NCBI RefSeq assembly: GCF_055900595.2
Contig: NZ_CM148325.1
Strand: one strand, 5' to 3'
DNA length: 64,000 bases
Under the pieces are notes generated by a model. It saw only the letters and a list, made by a program, of their open reading frames with translations, ran no database searches and was not told where the DNA came from. Made by a program: the position numbers and the translations under genes. Positions 6,990 through 34,708 of the stretch are shown in pieces (positions within the stretch are counted from its first letter, which is position 1; every line of letters starts with the position of its first letter).

Positions 6990-7310
6990 TCAGGCTTTTT
7001 CTAGCGTACACAGCAATGGATGCTCATTCTCCCTCGCGTACTTGTTCACCATCGCCACTTTGGTTTCTGCAACCTCGGCGGTAAAGACTCCGCAAATGGC
7101 CTTCCCCTGGTAGTGAACAGCGAGCATCAATTGCGTTGCACGTTCTACATCATAAGAAAAGAATTTTTGTAACACGTCAATAACAAACTCCATCGGAGTG
7201 TAATCATCATTGACTAATATCACTTTATACATAGATGGCGGTTTTAGCGCGTCGCGAACTTTTTCTTCCGCCAGTTGATCAAAGTCCAGCCAGTCGTTCG
7301 TTTTACCCAT
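6990..7310 (-). CDS. clpS: ClpS adaptor protein (N-end rule substrate delivery to ClpAP)
   Basis: 106-aa ORF immediately upstream of clpA on the same strand. Confidence 0.93.
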
Positions 7311-9876: not shown

Positions 9877-10988
9877 TGTGCAGCTCCTGGTTTGGCCTCA
9901 CCAATCACCACTTCATCGCCAGCTTCCAGCCCTTTGACAATCTCAACGTCGGTGTCGTTACGTGCACCAATCGTCACTTCACGTTCGCGTGTTTCACCAT
10001 TACGCAACAATTTGACTTTATAACGATTATCACCGACTGGATCGCCTAACGCCGACAGAGGGATCGTCAGCACATTTTTCACATCGGTGAGTTGAATATG
10101 CACTTGCGCAGTCATATCCAGACGCAGCAAACCATTGGGGTTGGGTACTTCAAAACGGGCGTAATAGAAAATAGCGTCGTTAACCTTTTCCGGCGTCGGT
10201 AGCACATCCTTGATTTGCCCCTCGTAGCGCGTCAGCGGATCGCCAAGCACCGTAAACCAGGCTTTTTGCCCCGGCTTCAGGTGGATTACATCCGCTTCAG
10301 AAACCTGCGCTTTTACCAGCATGGTGCTCATATCTGCCAGCGTCAGAATGTTCGGTGCTTGTTGTGCGGCAATCACCGTCTGGCCTTGCAGAGTGGTGAT
10401 TTGCGTGACTTCCCCGGCCATCGGGGCAACGATGCGGGTGTAATCGAGATTGGTTTTAGCCGTATCGAGTGAGGCCTGATTGCGCTTGATTTGCGCGTCA
10501 ATGGTGCCAATTTGCGCCTGTTTCACAGCCATCTCCGTCGCGGCGGTATCGAGATCCTGCTGTGAAACCGCCTGCGTTTGTGCAAGACGTTGCTGACGGG
10601 AATACGTCACCCGCGCCAGTTTCAGCTCCGCTTCCGCCTGCTGCCGCTGCGCGCGTAGCTCCATCAGCGTTGCTTCCACCTCCTTGATCTGGTTTTCAGC
10701 TTGTTCAGGATCAATAACCCCTAAAAGCTGGTCTTTTTTTACTTTATCGCCAATCGCCACCGACAGCGTTTTCAACTGACCGCTGACCTGTGCACCCACG
10801 TCAACCTTACGCAGCGCGTCCAGCTTTCCGGTCGCCAGCACGCTTTGCTGTAAATCGCCTGGACGCACAATCAGCGTCTGATAAGTCGGCACGGGTGCGT
10901 TAAGAATTCTCCATAACGTAATCAGCCCGGCAATGACTATCACCAGCGCAATAACGTAACGCTTCTTCACGGTTTTCCGCTTTTTCAT
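9873..10988 (-). CDS. macA: Macrolide export membrane fusion protein MacA
   Basis: 371 aa from [16 protein letters not shown]; coiled-coil rich periplasmic adaptor; stop overlaps macB start by 4 nt. Confidence 0.92.
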
Positions 10989-13750: not shown

Positions 13751-14175
13751 ATCCCCTCCAGAAATATGTGACTTATCCTTTACGCTGGCAGTATAACGGG
13801 AAAGGCCTTGCTAATACGTGATGACATCACATTTAAGCATGGCAAATGTCTGAAAAATGAGCGAATAATCGCGTTATACTCCCTCTTGCTGATAAGTCTG
13901 CAAAAACAACAAAATCAAATAATTAGCATGATAAATTATTTTTTATTACGCCTAAAGGATTAAATCTTTTGCTTGCACTACACTGTCAATCAGACAAATG
14001 ACTATATGGGGCAACCCGCTGTTGCCCTAAATCAAATTTACTGGATTTATTTATCTGGTGAATGACTCGCCTTCGTTTTTAAAATAGCCGCGCATTATTT
14101 CCGTCGTCACTTTTTTACGACGACCCTATAAAACGACCATATTTTTCACAGGGTCAATTTTTAATTGAGGTGGAT

Positions 14176-14871: not shown

Positions 14872-14881
14872 TTAACGCAGA

Positions 14882-14910
14882 AGGCCTGGCGCAATGTCAG
14901 GCCTTTTTTA
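14882..14910 (+). terminator. Intrinsic terminator of aqpZ
   Basis: Stem aggcctg/caggcct followed by tttttt. Confidence 0.75.
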
Positions 14911-14959
14911 AATATATTGATTCATCTTCCTGTTGCGCTCCTTGATGTGTTAAGCCACA

Positions 14960-15200
14960 TATAGTCACTGGCGCAGGGAGCGCGCAGGGGGCGGCCAATC
15001 GCCGCCGCCCCCTGCCCCCCCGGGCTCTGGCGAACAAAATCGCCGCTGCGCGGTGCCCTCGACTTATCCCTTGCGGCTACCGGGTCGGGCGCGAGGTAAC
15101 ATCCCGGTAAAACGCGCCCTCAGCCCACATCCATGTGGGCTGCCCCGGCCTTCAGGGAACGCCTCGGCGATTTTGACGCCACCAACACCGGTGCGGTTTG
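14960..15200. repeat. GC-rich structured extragenic element with nested inverted repeats
   Basis: Dyads cagggggcggc/gccgccccctg (about 14985-15014), cccacat/atgtggg (15124-15139) and a long-range pairing caaaatcgcc (about 15034-15043) with ggcgattttg (about 15166-15175); non-coding, sharply more GC-rich than flanks. Confidence 0.55.
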
Positions 15201-15355
15201 TAATTAAAGCGCAAGAATATCTTTAAATGAAAATGAATACCCTACCGATCCTTATGCATAACATTTCCTTTTAATTGCAACTTTACTCGTCCTTCCGCTT
15301 TCAGTAGTGTGTCATCGCGCATTTCGACTTCTTTCTTTGCAAGGACTGGTTTTTC

Positions 15356-16255
15356 ATGTTTTCTGGGCTGTTAATCATTCTGGTTCCCCTGATTGTGGGT
15401 TACCTCATTCCGCTTCGCCAAAAAGCTGCATTAAAGGTTATTAATCAGCTATTAAGCTGGATGGTTTACCTTATTCTCTTTTTTATGGGTATCAGTCTGG
15501 CGTTTCTCGATAACCTCGCCAGTAACCTGTTGGCGATTCTGCATTATTCCGCCGTCAGTATTACCGTTATTTTACTGTGTAATATTGCCGCCCTGATGTG
15601 GCTGGAGCGAGGCCTACCGTGGCGCAACCACCATCAGCAAGAAAAACTCCCGTCACGTATTGCGATGGCGCTGGAGTCCCTCAAGCTCTGCGGTGTGGTG
15701 GTGATTGGCTTTGCTATTGGCCTTAGCGGATTAGGTTTCTTACAACACGCTACGGAAGCCAGCGAATACACGTTAATTCTGCTACTTTTCCTCGTCGGTA
15801 TTCAGTTGCGCAATAATGGCATGACCTTAAAGCAGATTGTCCTTAATCGCCGGGGAATGATTGTCGCTGTGGTGGTGGTGGCCAGTTCTTTAATTGGTGG
15901 TTTAATTAACGCCTTTATTCTTGATCTTCCCATCAATACCGCGCTGGCAATGGCTTCCGGTTTCGGCTGGTATTCTCTTTCCGGTATTTTATTGACCGAA
16001 TCTTTTGGTCCGGTAATCGGGAGCGCGGCGTTTTTTAATGATTTGGCCCGTGAGCTGATTGCTATTATGTTGATCCCTGGGCTGATTCGCCGTAGCCGCT
16101 CGACTGCACTGGGCTTATGCGGTGCAACCTCGATGGATTTCACCCTGCCCGTTCTTCAACGTACTGGCGGGCTGGATATGGTCCCGGCGGCGATTGTTCA
16201 CGGTTTTATTCTCAGCCTGTTAGTACCTATCCTCATCGCCTTTTTCTCCGCGTAA
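15356..16255 (+). CDS. lysO: Lysine exporter LysO (YbjE)
   Basis: 299-aa polytopic membrane ORF in the position of ybjE between aqpZ and hcp. Confidence 0.88.
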   Translation: MFSGLLIILVPLIVGYLIPLRQKAALKVINQLLSWMVYLILFFMGISLAFLDNLASNLLAILHYSAVSITVILLCNIAALMWLERGLPWRNHHQQEKLPSRIAMALESLKLCGVVVIGFAIGLSGLGFLQHATEASEYTLILLLFLVGIQLRNNGMTLKQIVLNRRGMIVAVVVVASSLIGGLINAFILDLPINTALAMASGFGWYSLSGILLTESFGPVIGSAAFFNDLARELIAIMLIPGLIRRSRSTALGLCGATSMDFTLPVLQRTGGLDMVPAAIVHGFILSLLVPILIAFFSA

Positions 16256-16288
16256 TACCTCTCTGGCGGTAGATCCCTGCCGCCAAAA

Positions 16289-16302
16289 TTGCGCTAAATC
16301 AA
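16289..16302 (+). promoter_or_regulatory. FNR-type binding site in the hcp promoter
   Basis: TTGCGctaaATCAA matches the FNR consensus TTGAT-N4-ATCAA in 8 of 10 positions, about 100 bp upstream of the hcp ATG; hcp is a known anaerobically induced gene. Confidence 0.6.
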
Positions 16303-16398
16303 TCTCCCTTAAAGTTGGATGAAAAATCCCTTTTATCCCCGTGTTAAGCGTCTTAATCTTAAACATGTATATTAAATATAACTTTAAAAGGTGTGATC

Positions 16399-18051
16399 AT
16401 GTTTTGTGTGCAATGTGAACAAACTATCCGTACTCCGGCAGGAAACGGCTGCTCATACGCGCAGGGGATGTGTGGTAAAACGGCGGAAACCTCTGACCTT
16501 CAGGATTTACTCATTGCGGCGCTGCAAGGGCTTTCGGCCTGGGCGGTAAAAGCGCGTGAATACGGCATCATCAACCACGATGTAGACAGCTTCGCGCCGC
16601 GCGCATTTTTCTCAACTCTGACTAACGTTAACTTCGATTCTCCGCGTATTGTCGGCTACGCTCGTGAAGCAATTGCCCTGCGCGAGGCGCTGAAAGCACA
16701 GTGCCTGGCTGTAGATGCCAACGCCCACGTCGATAACCCGATGGCTGACCTGCAACTGGTGAGTGACGATCTCGGCGAACTGCAACGTCAGGCGGCGGAA
16801 TTTACTCCCAATAAAGATAAAGCGGCGATTGGCGAAAACATTCTCGGCCTGCGTCTGCTCTGCCTGTATGGCCTGAAAGGTGCTGCCGCCTATATGGAAC
16901 ACGCGCACGTTCTCGGTCAATATGACAACGATATTTACGCCCAGTACCATAAAATCATGGCATGGCTGGGTACCTGGCCTGCCGATATGAACGCACTTCT
17001 CGAGTGCTCCATGGAAATCGGCCAGATGAACTTCAAAGTGATGAGCATTCTGGACGCAGGCGAAACCGGTAAATACGGTCACCCGACGCCAACTCAGGTC
17101 AACGTCAAAGCGACGGCGGGTAAATGCATTCTGATTTCCGGTCACGATCTCAAAGATCTCTACAACTTGCTGGAACAGACCGAAGGCACGGGCGTTAATG
17201 TCTACACTCACGGCGAAATGCTGCCTGCCCACGGCTACCCGGAGCTGCGTAAATTCAAGCATCTGGTCGGTAACTACGGCAGCGGCTGGCAGAATCAGCA
17301 AGTAGAGTTCGCTCGCTTCCCTGGACCTATCGTGATGACCTCGAACTGCATCATCGACCCAACCGTAGGGGCTTATGACGATCGTATCTGGACCCGCAGC
17401 ATCGTTGGCTGGCCGGGTGTGCGTCATCTGGATGGTGATGATTTCTCAGCAGTTATTGCCCAGGCACAACAAATGGCGGGCTTCCCGTACAGCGAAATTC
17501 CGCACCTGATCACCGTGGGCTTTGGTCGTCAGACGCTGCTTGGCGCGGCGGATACGCTGATTGATCTGGTGAGCCGTGAAAAACTGCGTCATATCTTCCT
17601 GCTCGGTGGCTGTGACGGCGCACGCGGCGAGCGCCACTACTTCACCGATTTCGCCACCAGCGTGCCAGATGACTGCCTGATCCTGACTCTCGCCTGCGGT
17701 AAATATCGCTTTAACAAACTTGAGTTCGGCGATATCGAAGGTCTGCCGCGTCTGGTAGATGCTGGTCAATGTAACGATGCTTACTCAGCGATTATTCTGG
17801 CTGTCACTTTGGCAGAAAAACTGGGCTGCGGTGTCAACGATCTGCCGTTGTCGCTGGTACTCTCCTGGTTCGAACAAAAAGCGATTGTTATTCTGCTGAC
17901 GCTGCTTTCTTTGGGCGTGAAAAATATCGTTACCGGCCCGACTGCACCTGGCTTCCTGACGCCAGACCTGCTGGCGGTACTGAACGAGAAATTCGGCCTG
18001 CGTTCTATCACCACTGTTGAAGAAGATATGAAGCAACTGTTGAGCGCGTAA
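16399..18051 (+). CDS. hcp: Hybrid-cluster protein (hydroxylamine reductase / NO-stress protein)
   Basis: 550 aa from MFCVQCEQT with N-terminal Cys cluster C-x2-C-x(n)-C-x(n)-C. Confidence 0.95.
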
Positions 18052-18062
18052 GGAGTTTGTCG

Positions 18063-19031
18063 ATGACGATGCCAACCAATCAATGCCCCTGGCGGATGCA
18101 GGTTCATCACATTACGCAAGAAACGCCGGATGTGTGGACGATTTCCCTGATTTGCCACGATTACTACCCATATCGCGCCGGGCAATATGCACTGGTCAGC
18201 GTGCGAAACTCAGCGGAAACGCTGCGTGCTTACACCATTTCCTCCACGCCAGGCGTGAGTGAATACATCACTCTGACCGTGCGGCGGATTGATGACGGTG
18301 TCGGTTCCCAGTGGCTGACCCGCGATGTAAAACGCGGTGACTACCTCTGGCTTTCGGACGCGATGGGGGAATTTACCTGCGACGATAAAGCAGAAGATAA
18401 ATTCCTGTTGCTGGCGGCCGGTTGCGGCGTCACACCGATTATGTCGATGCGTCGCTGGCTGGCGAAAAATCGCCCGCAGGCGGATGTGCAGGTGATCTAC
18501 AACGTGCGTACGCCGCAGGATGTCATTTTCGCGGATGAGTGGCGTAATTACCCGGTGACACTGGTAGCGGAAAACGATGTTACGGAGGGATTCGTTGCCG
18601 GACGTCTGACACGTGAACTGCTGACAAGCGTTCCTGATTTAGCCTCTCGTACTGTGATGACCTGTGGCCCGGCTCCGTATATGGATTGGGTAGAACAGGA
18701 AGTGAAAGCGCTCGGCGTGACGCGTTTCTTTAAAGAGAAGTTCTTTACGCCAGTGGCGGAAGCAGCAACCAGCGGTCTGAAATTCACCAAACTGCAACCG
18801 GCGCAAGAATTTTACGCACCTGTTGGCACCACACTGCTGGAGGCTTTGGAAAGCAACAAAGTTCCGGTTGTCGCCGCCTGCCGTGCGGGTGTTTGCGGCT
18901 GCTGTAAAACGAAGGTGGTTTCCGGTGAATATACGGTGAGCAGCACGATGACGCTGACCGACGCCGAAATCGCTGAAGGTTACGTACTGGCCTGCTCCTG
19001 CCATCCGCAGGGGGATTTGGTTCTCGCATAA
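18063..19031 (+). CDS. hcr: NADH oxidoreductase Hcr (partner of Hcp)
   Basis: 322 aa; FAD/NAD-binding ferredoxin-reductase fold with C-terminal 2Fe-2S motif CRAGVCGCCK; 5 nt after hcp. Confidence 0.93.
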   Translation: MTMPTNQCPWRMQVHHITQETPDVWTISLICHDYYPYRAGQYALVSVRNSAETLRAYTISSTPGVSEYITLTVRRIDDGVGSQWLTRDVKRGDYLWLSDAMGEFTCDDKAEDKFLLLAAGCGVTPIMSMRRWLAKNRPQADVQVIYNVRTPQDVIFADEWRNYPVTLVAENDVTEGFVAGRLTRELLTSVPDLASRTVMTCGPAPYMDWVEQEVKALGVTRFFKEKFFTPVAEAATSGLKFTKLQPAQEFYAPVGTTLLEALESNKVPVVAACRAGVCGCCKTKVVSGEYTVSSTMTLTDAEIAEGYVLACSCHPQGDLVLA

Positions 19032-19040
19032 TCGTATTAT

Positions 19041-19070
19041 GCCCGATGATATACCTGTCATCGGGCAGTT
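19041..19070 (+). terminator. Hairpin downstream of hcr (possible terminator)
   Basis: Stem gcccgatga/tcatcgggc; weak U-tract. Confidence 0.45.
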
Positions 19071-19163
19071 TAACCGTTAGTGCCTCATTTTTCTCCCATC
19101 TCTTCCCCCTCCGTCAGATGAACTAAACTTGTTACCGTTATCACATTCAGGAGATGGAGAACC

Positions 19164-20882
19164 ATGAAACAAACGGTTGCAGCTTATATCGCCAAAACAC
19201 TCGAATCAGCAGGGGTAAAACGCATTTGGGGAGTGACTGGCGACTCTCTGAACGGTCTTAGCGACAGTCTTAATCGCATGGGCACCATCGAGTGGATGTC
19301 CACCCGTCATGAAGAAGTGGCGGCCTTTGCCGCTGGCGCTGAAGCCCAACTTAGCGGGGAACTGGCGGTCTGCGCCGGATCATGCGGACCTGGCAACCTG
19401 CACTTAATCAATGGTTTGTTCGATTGTCACCGTAATCACGTTCCGGTACTGGCAATTGCCGCTCATATCCCTTCCAGCGAAATTGGCAGCGGCTATTTCC
19501 AGGAAACCCACCCGCAAGAGTTATTCCGCGAATGTAGCCATTATTGCGAGCTGGTTTCCAGCCCGGAGCAGATCCCACAAGTGCTGGCGATTGCTATGCG
19601 TAAAGCGGTGTTAAACCGTGGCGTTTCCGTTGTCGTGTTACCGGGCGACGTGGCGTTAAAACCGGCACCGGAAGGGGCAACCACGCACTGGTATCATGCG
19701 CCACAACCAGTCGTCACCCCAGAAGAGGAAGAGTTACGCAAACTGGCGCAACTGCTGCGTTACTCCAGCAATATCGCTCTGATGTGTGGCAGCGGTTGCG
19801 CGGGGGCGCATAAAGAGCTCGTCGAGTTTGCCGGAAAAATTAAAGCGCCTATTGTTCATGCCCTGCGCGGTAAAGAACATGTCGAATACGATAATCCGTA
19901 TGATGTCGGAATGACGGGATTAATCGGCTTCTCGTCAGGTTTTCATACCATGATGAACGCCGACACGTTAGTGCTGCTCGGCACCCAATTCCCCTACCGT
20001 GCGTTCTACCCGACCGATGCCAAAATTATTCAGATTGATATCAACCCGGCCAGCATCGGCGCGCACAGTAAGGTGGATATGGCACTGGTCGGTGATATCA
20101 AATCGACTCTGCGTGCATTGCTGCCTTTAGTGGAAGAAAAAACCGATCGCAAATTTCTGGATAAAGCGCTGGAAGATTACCGCGATGCCCGCAAAGGGCT
20201 GGACGATTTAGCTAAACCGAGTGAGAAAGCCATTCACCCGCAATATCTGGCGCAGCAAATTAGCCATTTTGCTGCCGATGACGCCATTTTCACCTGTGAT
20301 GTCGGCACACCAACGGTATGGGCGGCGCGTTATCTGAAAATGAACGGCAAGCGCCGCCTGTTAGGTTCGTTTAACCACGGTTCAATGGCCAACGCCATGC
20401 CGCAGGCGCTGGGTGCTCAGGCGACAGAGCCAGAACGTCAGGTGGTCGCCATGTGCGGTGATGGTGGTTTCAGTATGTTGATGGGCGATTTTCTCTCAGT
20501 GGTACAAATGAAGCTGCCAGTGAAAATTATCGTCTTTAACAACAGCGTGCTGGGCTTTGTAGCGATGGAGATGAAAGCCGGAGGCTACCTGACTGACGGC
20601 ACCGAACTGCACGACACCAACTTTGCCCGCATTGCTGAAGCGTGCGGTATTACGGGCATCCGCGTAGAAAAAGCCGCTGAAGTCGATGAAGCCTTGCAAC
20701 GCGCCTTTTCCATCGACGGCCCGGTGCTGGTGGATGTGGTAGTCGCGAAAGAAGAGTTAGCCATTCCGCCGCAGATCAAACTCGAACAGGCCAAAGGATT
20801 TAGCCTGTATATGTTGCGCGCAATCATCAGCGGACGCGGTGACGAAGTGATCGAACTGGCGAAAACGAACTGGCTAAGGTAA
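19164..20882 (+). CDS. poxB: Pyruvate oxidase (ubiquinone-dependent, thiamine diphosphate enzyme)
   Basis: 572-aa [35 protein letters not shown]-terminus typical of TPP enzymes; synteny. Confidence 0.93.
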
Positions 20883-34219: not shown

Positions 34220-34708
34220 TTATTGCAACTGGAAGAACCGCCGACTGGTTGAGGGAACGAACAGTAGCAACAGGATGAGCATATCCGGCAACTTCTGCAG
34301 CATCAGGCTATGGAAGATTTCACGTTTTGATTCACCGGGAATGCTGAACAGCTCCGGATAACCATACCCCAGCGAAGCCGCCCACAAATAACTGGCGGCC
34401 GTGATTTGTGTCAACAGATACAGCCAGCGCGCCCAGCGACGCCCTTTCACCAGTGAAAACGCACACCAGATCTCAATGAAAACCAGCACCAGGCTGCTTA
34501 AAAAGACCAGTGTTAAACTCCAGGTTTGTACACTGCGATGAATGAACTCGCCAATACCGCGCACGCCCAGCGTATTGAAAATCATCAGCACGTCGAGGCC
34601 ACGGATCATAATAATGGCGAGCGCCGCCACCTGCACCAGCGCAGGCACATTCAGGCGAGCATGAGATGAAGATGTTTTCTTAAAAAATCCCAACGTTTCG
34701 TCTTCCAT
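34220..34708 (-). CDS. ybjO: Inner-membrane protein YbjO
   Basis: 162-aa hydrophobic ORF in the position of ybjO. Confidence 0.85.
   Translation of the reverse strand: MEDETLGFFKKTSSSHARLNVPALVQVAALAIIMIRGLDVLMIFNTLGVRGIGEFIHRSVQTWSLTLVFLSSLVLVFIEIWCAFSLVKGRRWARWLYLLTQITAASYLWAASLGYGYPELFSIPGESKREIFHSLMLQKLPDMLILLLLFVPSTSRRFFQLQ

What the first reader, a model, noticed from the sequence alone, without database searches (positions are those of the whole stretch)
16289..16302. FNR-type site (TTGCG-N4-ATCAA) positioned for class II activation of hcp-hcr
The site matches the FNR consensus in 8 of 10 positions and sits about 100 bp upstream of the hcp ATG, consistent with the known anaerobic, nitrosative-stress-responsive regulation of hcp. 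NsrR and OxyR sites may also be present but I could not confidently delineate them by eye.
Basis: partly seen in the sequence, partly recalled or inferred. Interest (0 to 1): 0.2.

Follow-up and report, generated by a model that had tools for sequence, protein, structure and literature searches.

The report
Known FNR site of hcp promoter

Summary
Window 16289-16302 reads TTGCGCTAAATCAA, 8 of 10 FNR consensus positions. Its centre lies 103.5 nt upstream of the hcp ATG, which is at 16399.

A bare consensus match is not distinctive: 52 such matches occur in the window against about 36 expected. A weight matrix built from 62 ChIP-bound E. coli FNR sites ranks it 3rd in 64 kb, where about 0.9 sites that good are expected by chance.

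The 14-mer is identical in E. coli K-12. There, Myers et al. 2013 list it as a ChIP-seq-bound FNR site and as a direct activator of hcp-hcr. It is nearly invariant in about 5,300 E. coli genomes and across Enterobacteriaceae.

The class II reading is wrong. Myers et al. place the site at -72.5, citing Filenko et al. 2005. In 92% of 108 gamma-proteobacterial hcp promoters a TAnnnT -10-like hexamer (16354-16359 here) sits exactly 65 nt after the start of the site. No -10-like element is conserved at class II distance.

The NsrR operator (16362-16384) is confirmed. Also present are a NarL/NarP-like 7-2-7 site (16256-16271) and a second NsrR-like repeat (16312-16334). No OxyR-like site stands out.

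Verdict: a real, already known feature of low interest, with its geometry corrected.

The parts
16289..16302 (.). FNR-binding site TTGCGCTAAATCAA. It has a strong right half-site (ATCAA) and a weak left half-site (TTGCG). Its centre at 16295/16296 is about -70.5 to -72.5 from the hcp transcript start.
   Evidence: Sequence. Weight-matrix rank 3 of 64 kb. Identical to the K-12 site that is ChIP-seq bound and listed at -72.5: PMC3688515. Conservation.
16354..16359 (+). Probable -10 hexamer of the hcp promoter: TAATCT here, TAACCT in K-12. This assignment is inferred.
   Evidence: A hexamer with A at position 2 and T at position 6 lies exactly 65 nt after the FNR site start in 92% of 108 species (T1, A2 and T6 together in 89%). 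Examples are Aeromonas TAGAAT and Yersinia/Serratia TATGCT. Columns 16354, 16355, 16358 and 16359 carry 2.0 bits in the 51-species footprint.
16368..16368 (+). Transcript start, inferred by arithmetic from the published -72.5 position. It could lie at 16366-16368 if the hexamer above occupies -12 to -7.
   Evidence: Myers et al. 2013 Table 1: FNR site at -72.5, with the TSS reference Filenko et al. 2005. The start was not mapped in this strain.
16362..16384 (.). NsrR operator (11-1-11 inverted repeat) AACATGTATAT-T-AAATATAACTT. It overlaps the transcript start, with its centre at 16373, about +6.
   Evidence: 16 of 22 consensus positions, and the only such site in the window. Its reverse complement AAGTTATATTTAATATACATGTT is the hcp 11-1-11 site at the NsrR ChIP-seq peak in CFT073, summit 22 bp upstream of the hcp start codon (PMC5320621). 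Nearly invariant in 51 species.
16312..16334 (.). Second, weaker NsrR-like 11-1-11 repeat AAGTTGGATGA-A-AAATCCCTTTT, centred about -45. It overlaps the -35 region (CTTTT, 16330-16334) and an A-tract (16322-16326). Its function is inferred.
   Evidence: 15 of 22 consensus positions; 12 placements in the window (both strands) are equal or better. Conserved blocks TTG, A.AAA and CTTTT appear in the footprint. The CFT073 left half AAGTTGCATTA is listed among predicted NsrR 11-mers under the hcp peak.
16256..16271 (.). NarL/NarP-like 7-2-7 heptamer pair TACCTCT-CT-GGCGGTA. Its centre is 32 bp upstream of the FNR centre, which is -104.5 if FNR is at -72.5.
   Evidence: 12 of 14 positions of TACYYMT-NN-AKRRGTA; 14 placements in the window (both strands) are equal or better. 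Partly conserved. NarL/NarP dependence of hcp induction is stated in PMC1274295. The -104.5 position is my recollection of Filenko 2005 and Chismon 2010, which could not be read here.
16265..16284 (+). Conserved hairpin GGCGGTAG-ATCC-CTGCCGCC between the lysO stop codon and the FNR site. It is probably the 3' stem-loop of lysO. Its 5' arm is also the right NarL heptamer.
   Evidence: All 8 pairs form in 48 of 108 species. Pair 6 occurs as T-A, T-G, C-G and G-C. No T-run follows it, and the terminator scan finds nothing.
16399..18051 (+). hcp coding sequence (hybrid cluster protein, annotated as hydroxylamine reductase).
   Evidence: ORF. RefSeq annotation of 100%-identical genomes. Two amino-acid differences from K-12.
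18063..19031 (+). hcr coding sequence (NADH oxidoreductase), second gene of the operon.
   Evidence: Coordinates mapped from the K-12 annotation.

Best explanation
The motif is the single FNR operator of the hcp-hcr promoter.

Activation. Under anoxia, dimeric [4Fe-4S] FNR binds TTGCGCTAAATCAA. [quoted passage not shown] It does not overlap the -35 element as a class II activator would.

Layered control. The core promoter is weak: the -10 is TAATCT at 16354-16359 and the -35 region is poor, around 16330-16336. NsrR sits on an 11-1-11 operator over the transcript start (16362-16384). It probably also binds a weaker repeat over the -35 region and A-tract (16312-16334). This keeps the promoter shut until nitric oxide inactivates NsrR. 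A NarL/NarP-type 7-2-7 site 32 bp upstream of the FNR centre adds the nitrate/nitrite input.

Shown versus inferred. Shown: the sequence, its statistical distinctiveness, its conservation, the fixed spacing, and its identity to the K-12 and CFT073 sites that are bound in vivo. Taken from the literature: the -72.5 position, FNR dependence and NsrR repression. Inferred: the alpha-CTD contact, the exact -10 and -35 hexamers, and the roles of the second NsrR-like repeat and the NarL site in this strain.
For: Site quality. The weight matrix ranks it 3rd in 64 kb, with 0.87 expected by chance.

Identity to studied sites. The window and K-12 differ at only 3 of 143 intergenic positions (16318, 16342, 16357), none inside the FNR site or the downstream NsrR operator (16362-16384); 16318 lies in the second NsrR-like repeat. 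In K-12 the 14-mer is a ChIP-seq-bound FNR site and hcp-hcr is directly FNR-activated with the site at -72.5 (PMC3688515). The NsrR 11-1-11 site is identical to the ChIP-seq site in CFT073 (PMC5320621). The hcp promoter is used as an NsrR/NO reporter (PMC9052748).

Purifying selection. The intergenic region is 2.1% diverged from K-12. Four-fold degenerate sites of the flanking genes are 18-27% diverged, and the two neighbouring intergenic regions 6.7-6.8%.

Geometry. In the 51 Enterobacteriaceae-type promoters selected because the NsrR core starts exactly 76 nt after the FNR site start (centre to centre 77.5 bp), the sequences line up without gaps across a spacer stretch (16336-16351) that is otherwise unconserved; most other Enterobacteriaceae-type promoters in the table are at 76.5-77.5 bp. 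A TAnnnT hexamer lies exactly 65 nt after the site start in 92% of 108 species, including Aeromonas.

Definition. Class I FNR promoters have an upstream site that works through alpha-CTD contact (PMC4601167; PMC3688515).
Against: No experiment exists for this strain; the transcript start is transferred from K-12.

With +1 at 16368 the conserved TAnnnT hexamer would occupy -14 to -9, slightly further upstream than usual. Either the start or the hexamer assignment could therefore be off by about 2 nt.

Myers et al. saw no sigma-70 ChIP peak at hcp and called the operon sigma-E dependent. I could not trace that claim in the cited paper, and I found no sigma-E-like promoter. Their cultures lacked nitrite or NO, so NsrR repression could explain the missing sigma-70 peak; that explanation is my inference.

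The two primary promoter papers (Filenko 2005/2007 and Chismon 2010) were not available. The NarL -104.5 position and any second NsrR target rest on sequence plus my recollection.
Confidence: 0.9

Rival explanations
1. One reading: the site is a class II FNR site centred at -41.5. It would overlap the -35 element of a promoter that starts near 16337 and gives a 5' leader of about 62 nt.
For: Most FNR-activated promoters are class II: 19 of 23 in Myers et al.. In this window AAAAAT at 16322-16327 has the A2/T6 signature of a -10 hexamer and would put the site at about -38.5.
Against: The published position is -72.5. The AAAAAT hexamer is not conserved: only 12% of 108 species have A2/T6 there, and no offset corresponding to -38.5 to -45.5 exceeds 19%. 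The offset corresponding to -70.5 reaches 92%. The sigma-70 scan finds no promoter-like pair in 16150-16500. The A-tract is better explained as part of the conserved second NsrR-like repeat.
Confidence: 0.04
2. The motif is a chance consensus match with no regulatory role, and hcp is controlled from elsewhere.
For: Matches with 2 or fewer mismatches are common: 52 in the window against about 36 expected. The left half-site is poor (TTGCG).
Against: Weight-matrix rank 3 of 64 kb. ChIP-seq occupancy of the identical K-12 sequence. Near-invariance across Enterobacteriaceae while neighbouring spacer columns are free to vary. Fixed distance to the -10-like hexamer.
Confidence: 0.01
3. The site is bound by FNR, but the promoter it serves is read by an alternative sigma factor (sigma-E), as Myers et al. 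suggested.
For: Myers et al. found no sigma-70 ChIP enrichment at hcp and annotate a 'sigma-E site'.
Against: The cited sigma-E paper does not mention hcp or ybjW in its main text, and its supplements are not held. The best GGAACTT-N15-19-TCAAA match upstream of hcp is 8 of 12 positions, with 809 equal or better placements in the window. The conserved hexamer is a sigma-70-type TAnnnT.
Confidence: 0.03

Closest known systems
E. coli K-12 hcp-hcr promoter (Filenko, Browning and Cole 2005; Filenko et al. 2007; Chismon et al. 2010; Myers et al. 2013)
   Same: This is the same locus. The FNR 14-mer, the NsrR 11-1-11 operator, the NarL/NarP-like 7-2-7 site, all spacings and the distance to the ATG are identical. 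FNR is at -72.5.
   Different: There are three intergenic substitutions. G for C at 16318 lies in the second NsrR-like repeat. T for C at 16342 lies in unconserved spacer. T for C at 16357 lies in the -10-like hexamer, giving TAATCT instead of TAACCT; both forms occur among Enterobacteriaceae. The host is a divergent Escherichia lineage, 18-27% diverged from K-12 at four-fold sites.
Class I FNR/CRP-dependent promoters (activator upstream of -35, for example hlyE at -61.5, ackA at -74.5)
   Same: An upstream position, roughly three helical turns beyond the class II position. Activation is expected through the alpha-CTD.
   Different: The alpha-CTD contact was not tested. The promoter carries extra layers (NsrR, NarL/NarP) that simple class I promoters lack.
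Class II FNR-dependent promoters (narG, nirB, dmsA, nrfA at -41.5)
   Same: The same activator and the same type of operator sequence.
   Different: The site is about 30 bp further upstream and does not overlap the -35 region. No conserved -10 element lies at class II distance.
FNR site upstream of aqpZ, in the ybjD-aqpZ intergenic region (window 14022-14035, TTGCCCTAAATCAA)
   Same: 13 of 14 bases are identical. It is also ChIP-bound in K-12 and is the best weight-matrix hit in the window.
   Different: It serves a different promoter and the flanking sequences are unrelated. The resemblance looks coincidental.

Membership tests
FNR operator (TTGAT-N4-ATCAA) | 14-bp inverted repeat matching the FNR consensus or weight matrix above a genome-wide threshold | tested here: met
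   8 of 10 consensus positions. 13.2 bits on a matrix of 62 ChIP-bound sites, rank 3 of 64 kb. The identical K-12 sequence passes the PatSer threshold of Myers et al. (13.11, ln p -11.6).
FNR operator (TTGAT-N4-ATCAA) | Lies in the regulatory region of an FNR-dependent transcription unit | tested here: met
   It lies in the 143-bp lysO-hcp intergenic region, 103.5 nt before the hcp ATG. hcp-hcr is in the direct FNR-activated category in K-12.
FNR operator (TTGAT-N4-ATCAA) | Occupied by FNR in vivo or in vitro | not testable with these tools
   Not testable for this strain. The identical sequence in K-12 lies at an FNR ChIP-seq peak (PMC3688515 Tables 1 and S6).
FNR operator (TTGAT-N4-ATCAA) | Conserved in orthologous promoters | tested here: met
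   The 14-mer is identical in 46 of 59 Enterobacteriaceae and unassigned species, and ATCAA is kept throughout Enterobacterales and Aeromonas. The 34-mer is identical in 5,318 of 5,424 E. coli genomes.
Class II FNR-dependent promoter | Site centred near -41.5 (+/- 4), overlapping the -35 element | tested here: not met
   The published position is -72.5. The conserved -10-like hexamer starts 58.5 bp downstream of the site centre, which implies about -70.5. No conserved -10-like hexamer lies at class II distance.
Class I-type (upstream) FNR activation | Site centred upstream of -35 near -61.5, -71.5 or -82.5, at a fixed distance from the core promoter | tested here: met
   The site is at -70.5 to -72.5. 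The 65-nt distance from site start to hexamer start is kept in 92% of 108 species. The 77.5-bp distance to the NsrR centre holds in most Enterobacteriaceae-type promoters; the 51 sequences were selected for this offset.
Class I-type (upstream) FNR activation | Activation through contact between FNR and the alpha-CTD of RNA polymerase | not testable with these tools
   Inferred from the position only.
NsrR operator (11-1-11 inverted repeat) | Match to AAGATGCATTT-N-AAATGCATCTT overlapping the promoter, at an NsrR ChIP peak | tested here: met
   16362-16384 matches 16 of 22 positions and is unique in the window. It is identical to the hcp site at the CFT073 NsrR ChIP-seq peak.
NarL/NarP 7-2-7 site | Inverted heptamers TACYYMT-NN-AKRRGTA upstream of a nitrate/nitrite-induced promoter | tested here: inconclusive
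   16256-16271 matches 12 of 14 positions, but 14 placements in the window (both strands) are as good. Its conservation is confounded by the overlapping hairpin. NarL/NarP dependence of hcp is stated in PMC1274295.
OxyR-binding site | Match to ATAGnTnnnAnCTAT-N7-ATAGnTnnnAnCTAT | tested here: not met
   The best match in 16240-16400 is 12 of 20 positions, and 98 placements in the window are equal or better. A consensus count is a crude test for OxyR.

The most novel reading that the evidence does not exclude
The whole 14-mer is held almost invariant across Enterobacteriaceae. That includes the non-consensus left half (TTGCG), the 4-nt spacer and the immediately adjacent conserved hairpin and AAAA. 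The fixed upstream position (about -71) is kept as far as Aeromonas. This much constraint could mean more than simple FNR recognition. The deliberately weak half-site might tune FNR occupancy, the site might overlap the target of a second factor (for example the uncharacterised OxyR-SNO input), or it might be coupled to read-through and termination of lysO at the abutting hairpin.
Probability: 0.07. Interest if true: 0.3.

Novelty: already known. Interest (0 to 1): 0.08.

Why it matters
It matters little beyond correct annotation. The hcp promoter is a standard reporter for cytoplasmic nitric oxide. Its control by FNR, NsrR and NarL/NarP has been dissected in K-12, and the window carries the same elements almost base for base.

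The useful outcomes are three:
- The geometry is corrected: hcp is one of the few FNR promoters activated from an upstream position (-72.5), not a class II promoter.
- This upstream architecture, with its fixed 65-nt distance from the FNR site to the -10-like hexamer, is conserved across Enterobacterales and Aeromonas.
- The regulatory region is far more conserved than the surrounding synonymous sites in this divergent Escherichia lineage.

Tried and rejected
Papers not obtainable. Chismon et al. 2010 (by DOI) and Filenko et al. 2007 (by PMC id) are not held. Searches for 'Chismon' with hcp and FNR, for 'hcp-hcr operon promoter', and for transcription-start papers on hcp found nothing usable. 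One search failed on syntax, as did one find call. The -72.5 position therefore rests on Myers et al. 2013 Table 1, which cites Filenko et al. 2005.

Promoter and terminator scan. The sigma-70 and terminator scan of 16150-16500 found nothing. This is as expected for a weak, activator-dependent promoter, so it was not informative.

OxyR. The consensus scan gave no distinctive site.

Sigma-E. The cited paper does not mention hcp or ybjW and its supplements are not held. No sigma-E-like promoter was found in the sequence. Rejected.

Class II promoter built on AAAAAT (16322-16327). The hexamer is not conserved. Rejected.

Duplication linking the aqpZ and hcp FNR sites. The flanks are unrelated. 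Rejected.

Hairpin 16265-16284 as a canonical intrinsic terminator. No T-run follows it. Left open.

Full report
**What is in the sequence.** Window 16289-16302 reads TTGCGCTAAATCAA, which matches the FNR consensus TTGAT-N4-ATCAA at 8 of 10 positions. The site lies in the 143-bp gap between lysO/ybjE (15356-16255) and hcp. The hcp ATG is at 16399; the ORF tool starts at an in-frame GTG at 16393. hcr (18063-19031) and poxB (19164-20882) follow on the same strand. The gene names come from the RefSeq annotation of genomes that are 100% identical over 3.8 kb. The site centre (16295/16296) is 103.5 nt upstream of the A of the ATG.

**Is it more than chance?** As a bare consensus match it is not. 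The window contains 52 matches with 2 or fewer mismatches, against 36 +/- 6 in shuffles. I built a symmetrised weight matrix from the 62 ChIP-bound FNR sites in Table S6 of Myers et al. 2013, leaving out the hcp site itself. On that matrix the site scores 13.2 bits and ranks third of about 64,000 positions. Random sequence with the same first-order composition gives 0.87 +/- 0.88 sites that good per 64 kb. That is about 0.002 expected in the 143-bp intergenic region (my arithmetic).

**Identity with the studied E. coli site.**
- The window comes from an Escherichia lineage that RefSeq labels E. coli but that is clearly divergent. Only 10 of 5,426 complete genomes are at least 99% identical over the locus.
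- Four-fold degenerate sites of lysO, hcp, hcr and poxB differ from K-12 at 18-27%.
- The lysO-hcp intergenic region differs from K-12 at only 3 of 143 positions (16318, 16342, 16357). None is in the FNR site or the downstream NsrR operator (16362-16384); 16318 falls in the second NsrR-like repeat.
- The two neighbouring intergenic regions are 6.7-6.8% diverged.
- In K-12 the same 14-mer, written as TTGATTTAGCGCAA on the other strand, is in Myers et al. Table S6 with PatSer score 13.11 and a '+' for lying at an FNR ChIP-seq peak. Table 1 of that paper places hcp-hcr among operons directly activated by FNR (PMC3688515).
- Rodionov et al. 2005 had already pointed to a conserved FNR-like motif and a downstream NsrR motif upstream of enterobacterial hcp (PMC1274295).

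**Geometry: upstream (class I-type), not class II.** Myers et al. [quoted passage not shown] The reference for the start is Filenko, Browning and Cole 2005. In window coordinates this puts +1 at 16368, 31 nt before the ATG.

I tested the geometry independently. One scan of genome contigs with a degenerate pattern for the hcp N-terminus returned 120 loci from Enterobacterales, Aeromonas, Shewanella and others. In 108 of them an FNR-like site of at least 11 bits lies 85-140 nt before the ATG.
- Anchored on that site, a hexamer with A at position 2 and T at position 6 occurs exactly 65 nt after the site start in 92% of species. All three of T1, A2 and T6 are present in 89%.
- The hexamer is TAATCT or TAACCT in Enterobacteriaceae, TATGCT in Yersinia, Serratia and Pectobacterium, and TAGAAT in Aeromonas.
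- If this hexamer is -12 to -7, the FNR centre is at -70.5. With the published start it is -72.5.
- At offsets corresponding to a centre at -38.5 to -45.5, at most 19% of species show even the A2/T6 signature. The AAAAAT at 16322-16327 in this window reaches only 12%.
- In the 51 Enterobacteriaceae-type promoters I selected because the NsrR core begins exactly 76 nt after the FNR site start (77.5 bp centre to centre), the sequences align without gaps even though the spacer 16336-16351 is otherwise unconserved. Most other Enterobacteriaceae-type promoters in the table have 76.5-77.5 bp.

Myers et al. and Green et al. describe upstream FNR sites (-61.5 or beyond) as rare and as working through the alpha-CTD of RNA polymerase. 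I infer that mechanism here but have not shown it.

**Other elements of the promoter.**
- **NsrR operator.** 16362-16384 (AACATGTATAT-T-AAATATAACTT) matches the NsrR 11-1-11 consensus at 16 of 22 positions and is the only such site in the window. Its reverse complement is exactly the hcp site listed at the NsrR ChIP-seq peak in CFT073, whose summit is 22 bp upstream of the start codon (PMC5320621). It is centred at about +6.
- **Second NsrR-like repeat.** 16312-16334 matches 15 of 22 positions and is centred at about -45. It explains the conserved blocks TTG / A.AAA / CTTTT between the FNR site and the -10. The CFT073 form of its left half (AAGTTGCATTA) is among the predicted NsrR 11-mers under the same peak.
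- **NarL/NarP-like site.** 16256-16271 (TACCTCT-CT-GGCGGTA) matches the 7-2-7 consensus at 12 of 14 positions. Its centre is 32 bp upstream of the FNR centre, which is -104.5. That agrees with my recollection of the K-12 literature, which I could not read here.
- **OxyR.** No consensus-like site stands out: the best match is 12 of 20 positions, with 98 equal or better placements in the window.
- **Sigma-E.** Myers et al. remark that hcp-hcr is sigma-E dependent. I could not trace this in the cited paper, and it is not supported by sequence.

**How it most likely works.** Anaerobic FNR binds 16289-16302 and activates a weak sigma-70 promoter from about -71 or -72. NsrR bound over the start, and probably over the -35 region, keeps the promoter off until NO destroys the NsrR cluster. 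NarL/NarP add the nitrate/nitrite signal from further upstream. The result is expression only when oxygen is absent and nitrosative stress is present. This matches the known behaviour of hcp and its use as an NO reporter (PMC9052748).

**Verdict.** It is wrong on the class II positioning. Everything found is already described for E. coli K-12. The only modest additions are the breadth of conservation of the upstream architecture and the strong purifying selection on the region in this divergent Escherichia lineage. Interest is low.

Noticed in passing
window 14022-14035: TTGCCCTAAATCAA is the best FNR weight-matrix hit in the whole window (14.2 bits) and is 13 of 14 bases identical to the hcp site. 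It lies about 147 nt upstream of the aqpZ ATG (14176), in the gap between divergent ybjD and aqpZ. It corresponds to the ChIP-bound 'aqpZ/ybjD' site of Myers et al. Table S6. The flanks are unrelated to those of the hcp site.
   Followed up: partly
window 16265-16284: A conserved GC-rich hairpin, GGCGGTAG-ATCC-CTGCCGCC, starts nine bases after the lysO stop codon and ends 4 nt before the FNR site. All 8 pairs are kept in 48 of 108 species, and pair 6 occurs as T-A, T-G, C-G and G-C. No T-run follows, so it is not a canonical intrinsic terminator. Its 5' arm doubles as the right heptamer of the NarL/NarP-like 7-2-7 site.
   Followed up: partly
window 16312-16334: A second NsrR-like 11-1-11 repeat (15 of 22 positions) is centred at about -45 and conserved across Enterobacteriaceae. 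In this window position 16318 is G where K-12 has C, which weakens the left half (AAGTTGGATGA against AAGTTGCATGA).
   Followed up: partly
window 15356-20882 (whole locus): The lineage is labelled E. coli in RefSeq but is 18-27% diverged from K-12 at four-fold degenerate sites. Only 10 of 5,426 complete genomes are at least 99% identical. It is about 93% identical to two other 'E. coli'-labelled GTDB species representatives and 91% to E. albertii. It is probably a cryptic Escherichia clade.
   Followed up: partly
window 16256-16398 compared with 14872-15355 and 19032-19163: The lysO-hcp intergenic region is 2.1% diverged from K-12. The aqpZ-lysO and hcr-poxB intergenic regions are 6.7-6.8% diverged. 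The hcp regulatory region is under unusually strong constraint.
   Followed up: yes
window 16357: T here against C in K-12, inside the probable -10 hexamer (TAATCT against TAACCT). Both forms are common among Enterobacteriaceae: 16 and 25 of 59 species.
   Followed up: yes
window 10701-10714, 34401-34414, 7210-7223: Three other FNR weight-matrix hits score about the same as the hcp site (13.2-13.3 bits): TTGTTCAGGATCAA, GTGATTTGTGTCAA and TTGACTAATATCAC. Their gene context was not examined.
   Followed up: no
E. coli genome hits to window 15300-19100: Six of the matching places for the lysO-hcp-hcr region are on records classed as plasmids, and a few genomes carry 2-3 places.
   Followed up: no
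Aeromonas loci, e.g. L008, L015, L030: In Aeromonas the hcp FNR-like site is a perfect consensus (TTGATCTGCATCAA) at the same 65-nt distance from a TAGAAT hexamer. It is preceded by a canonical terminator-like hairpin with a T-run, and no NsrR-like repeat was detected.
   Followed up: no
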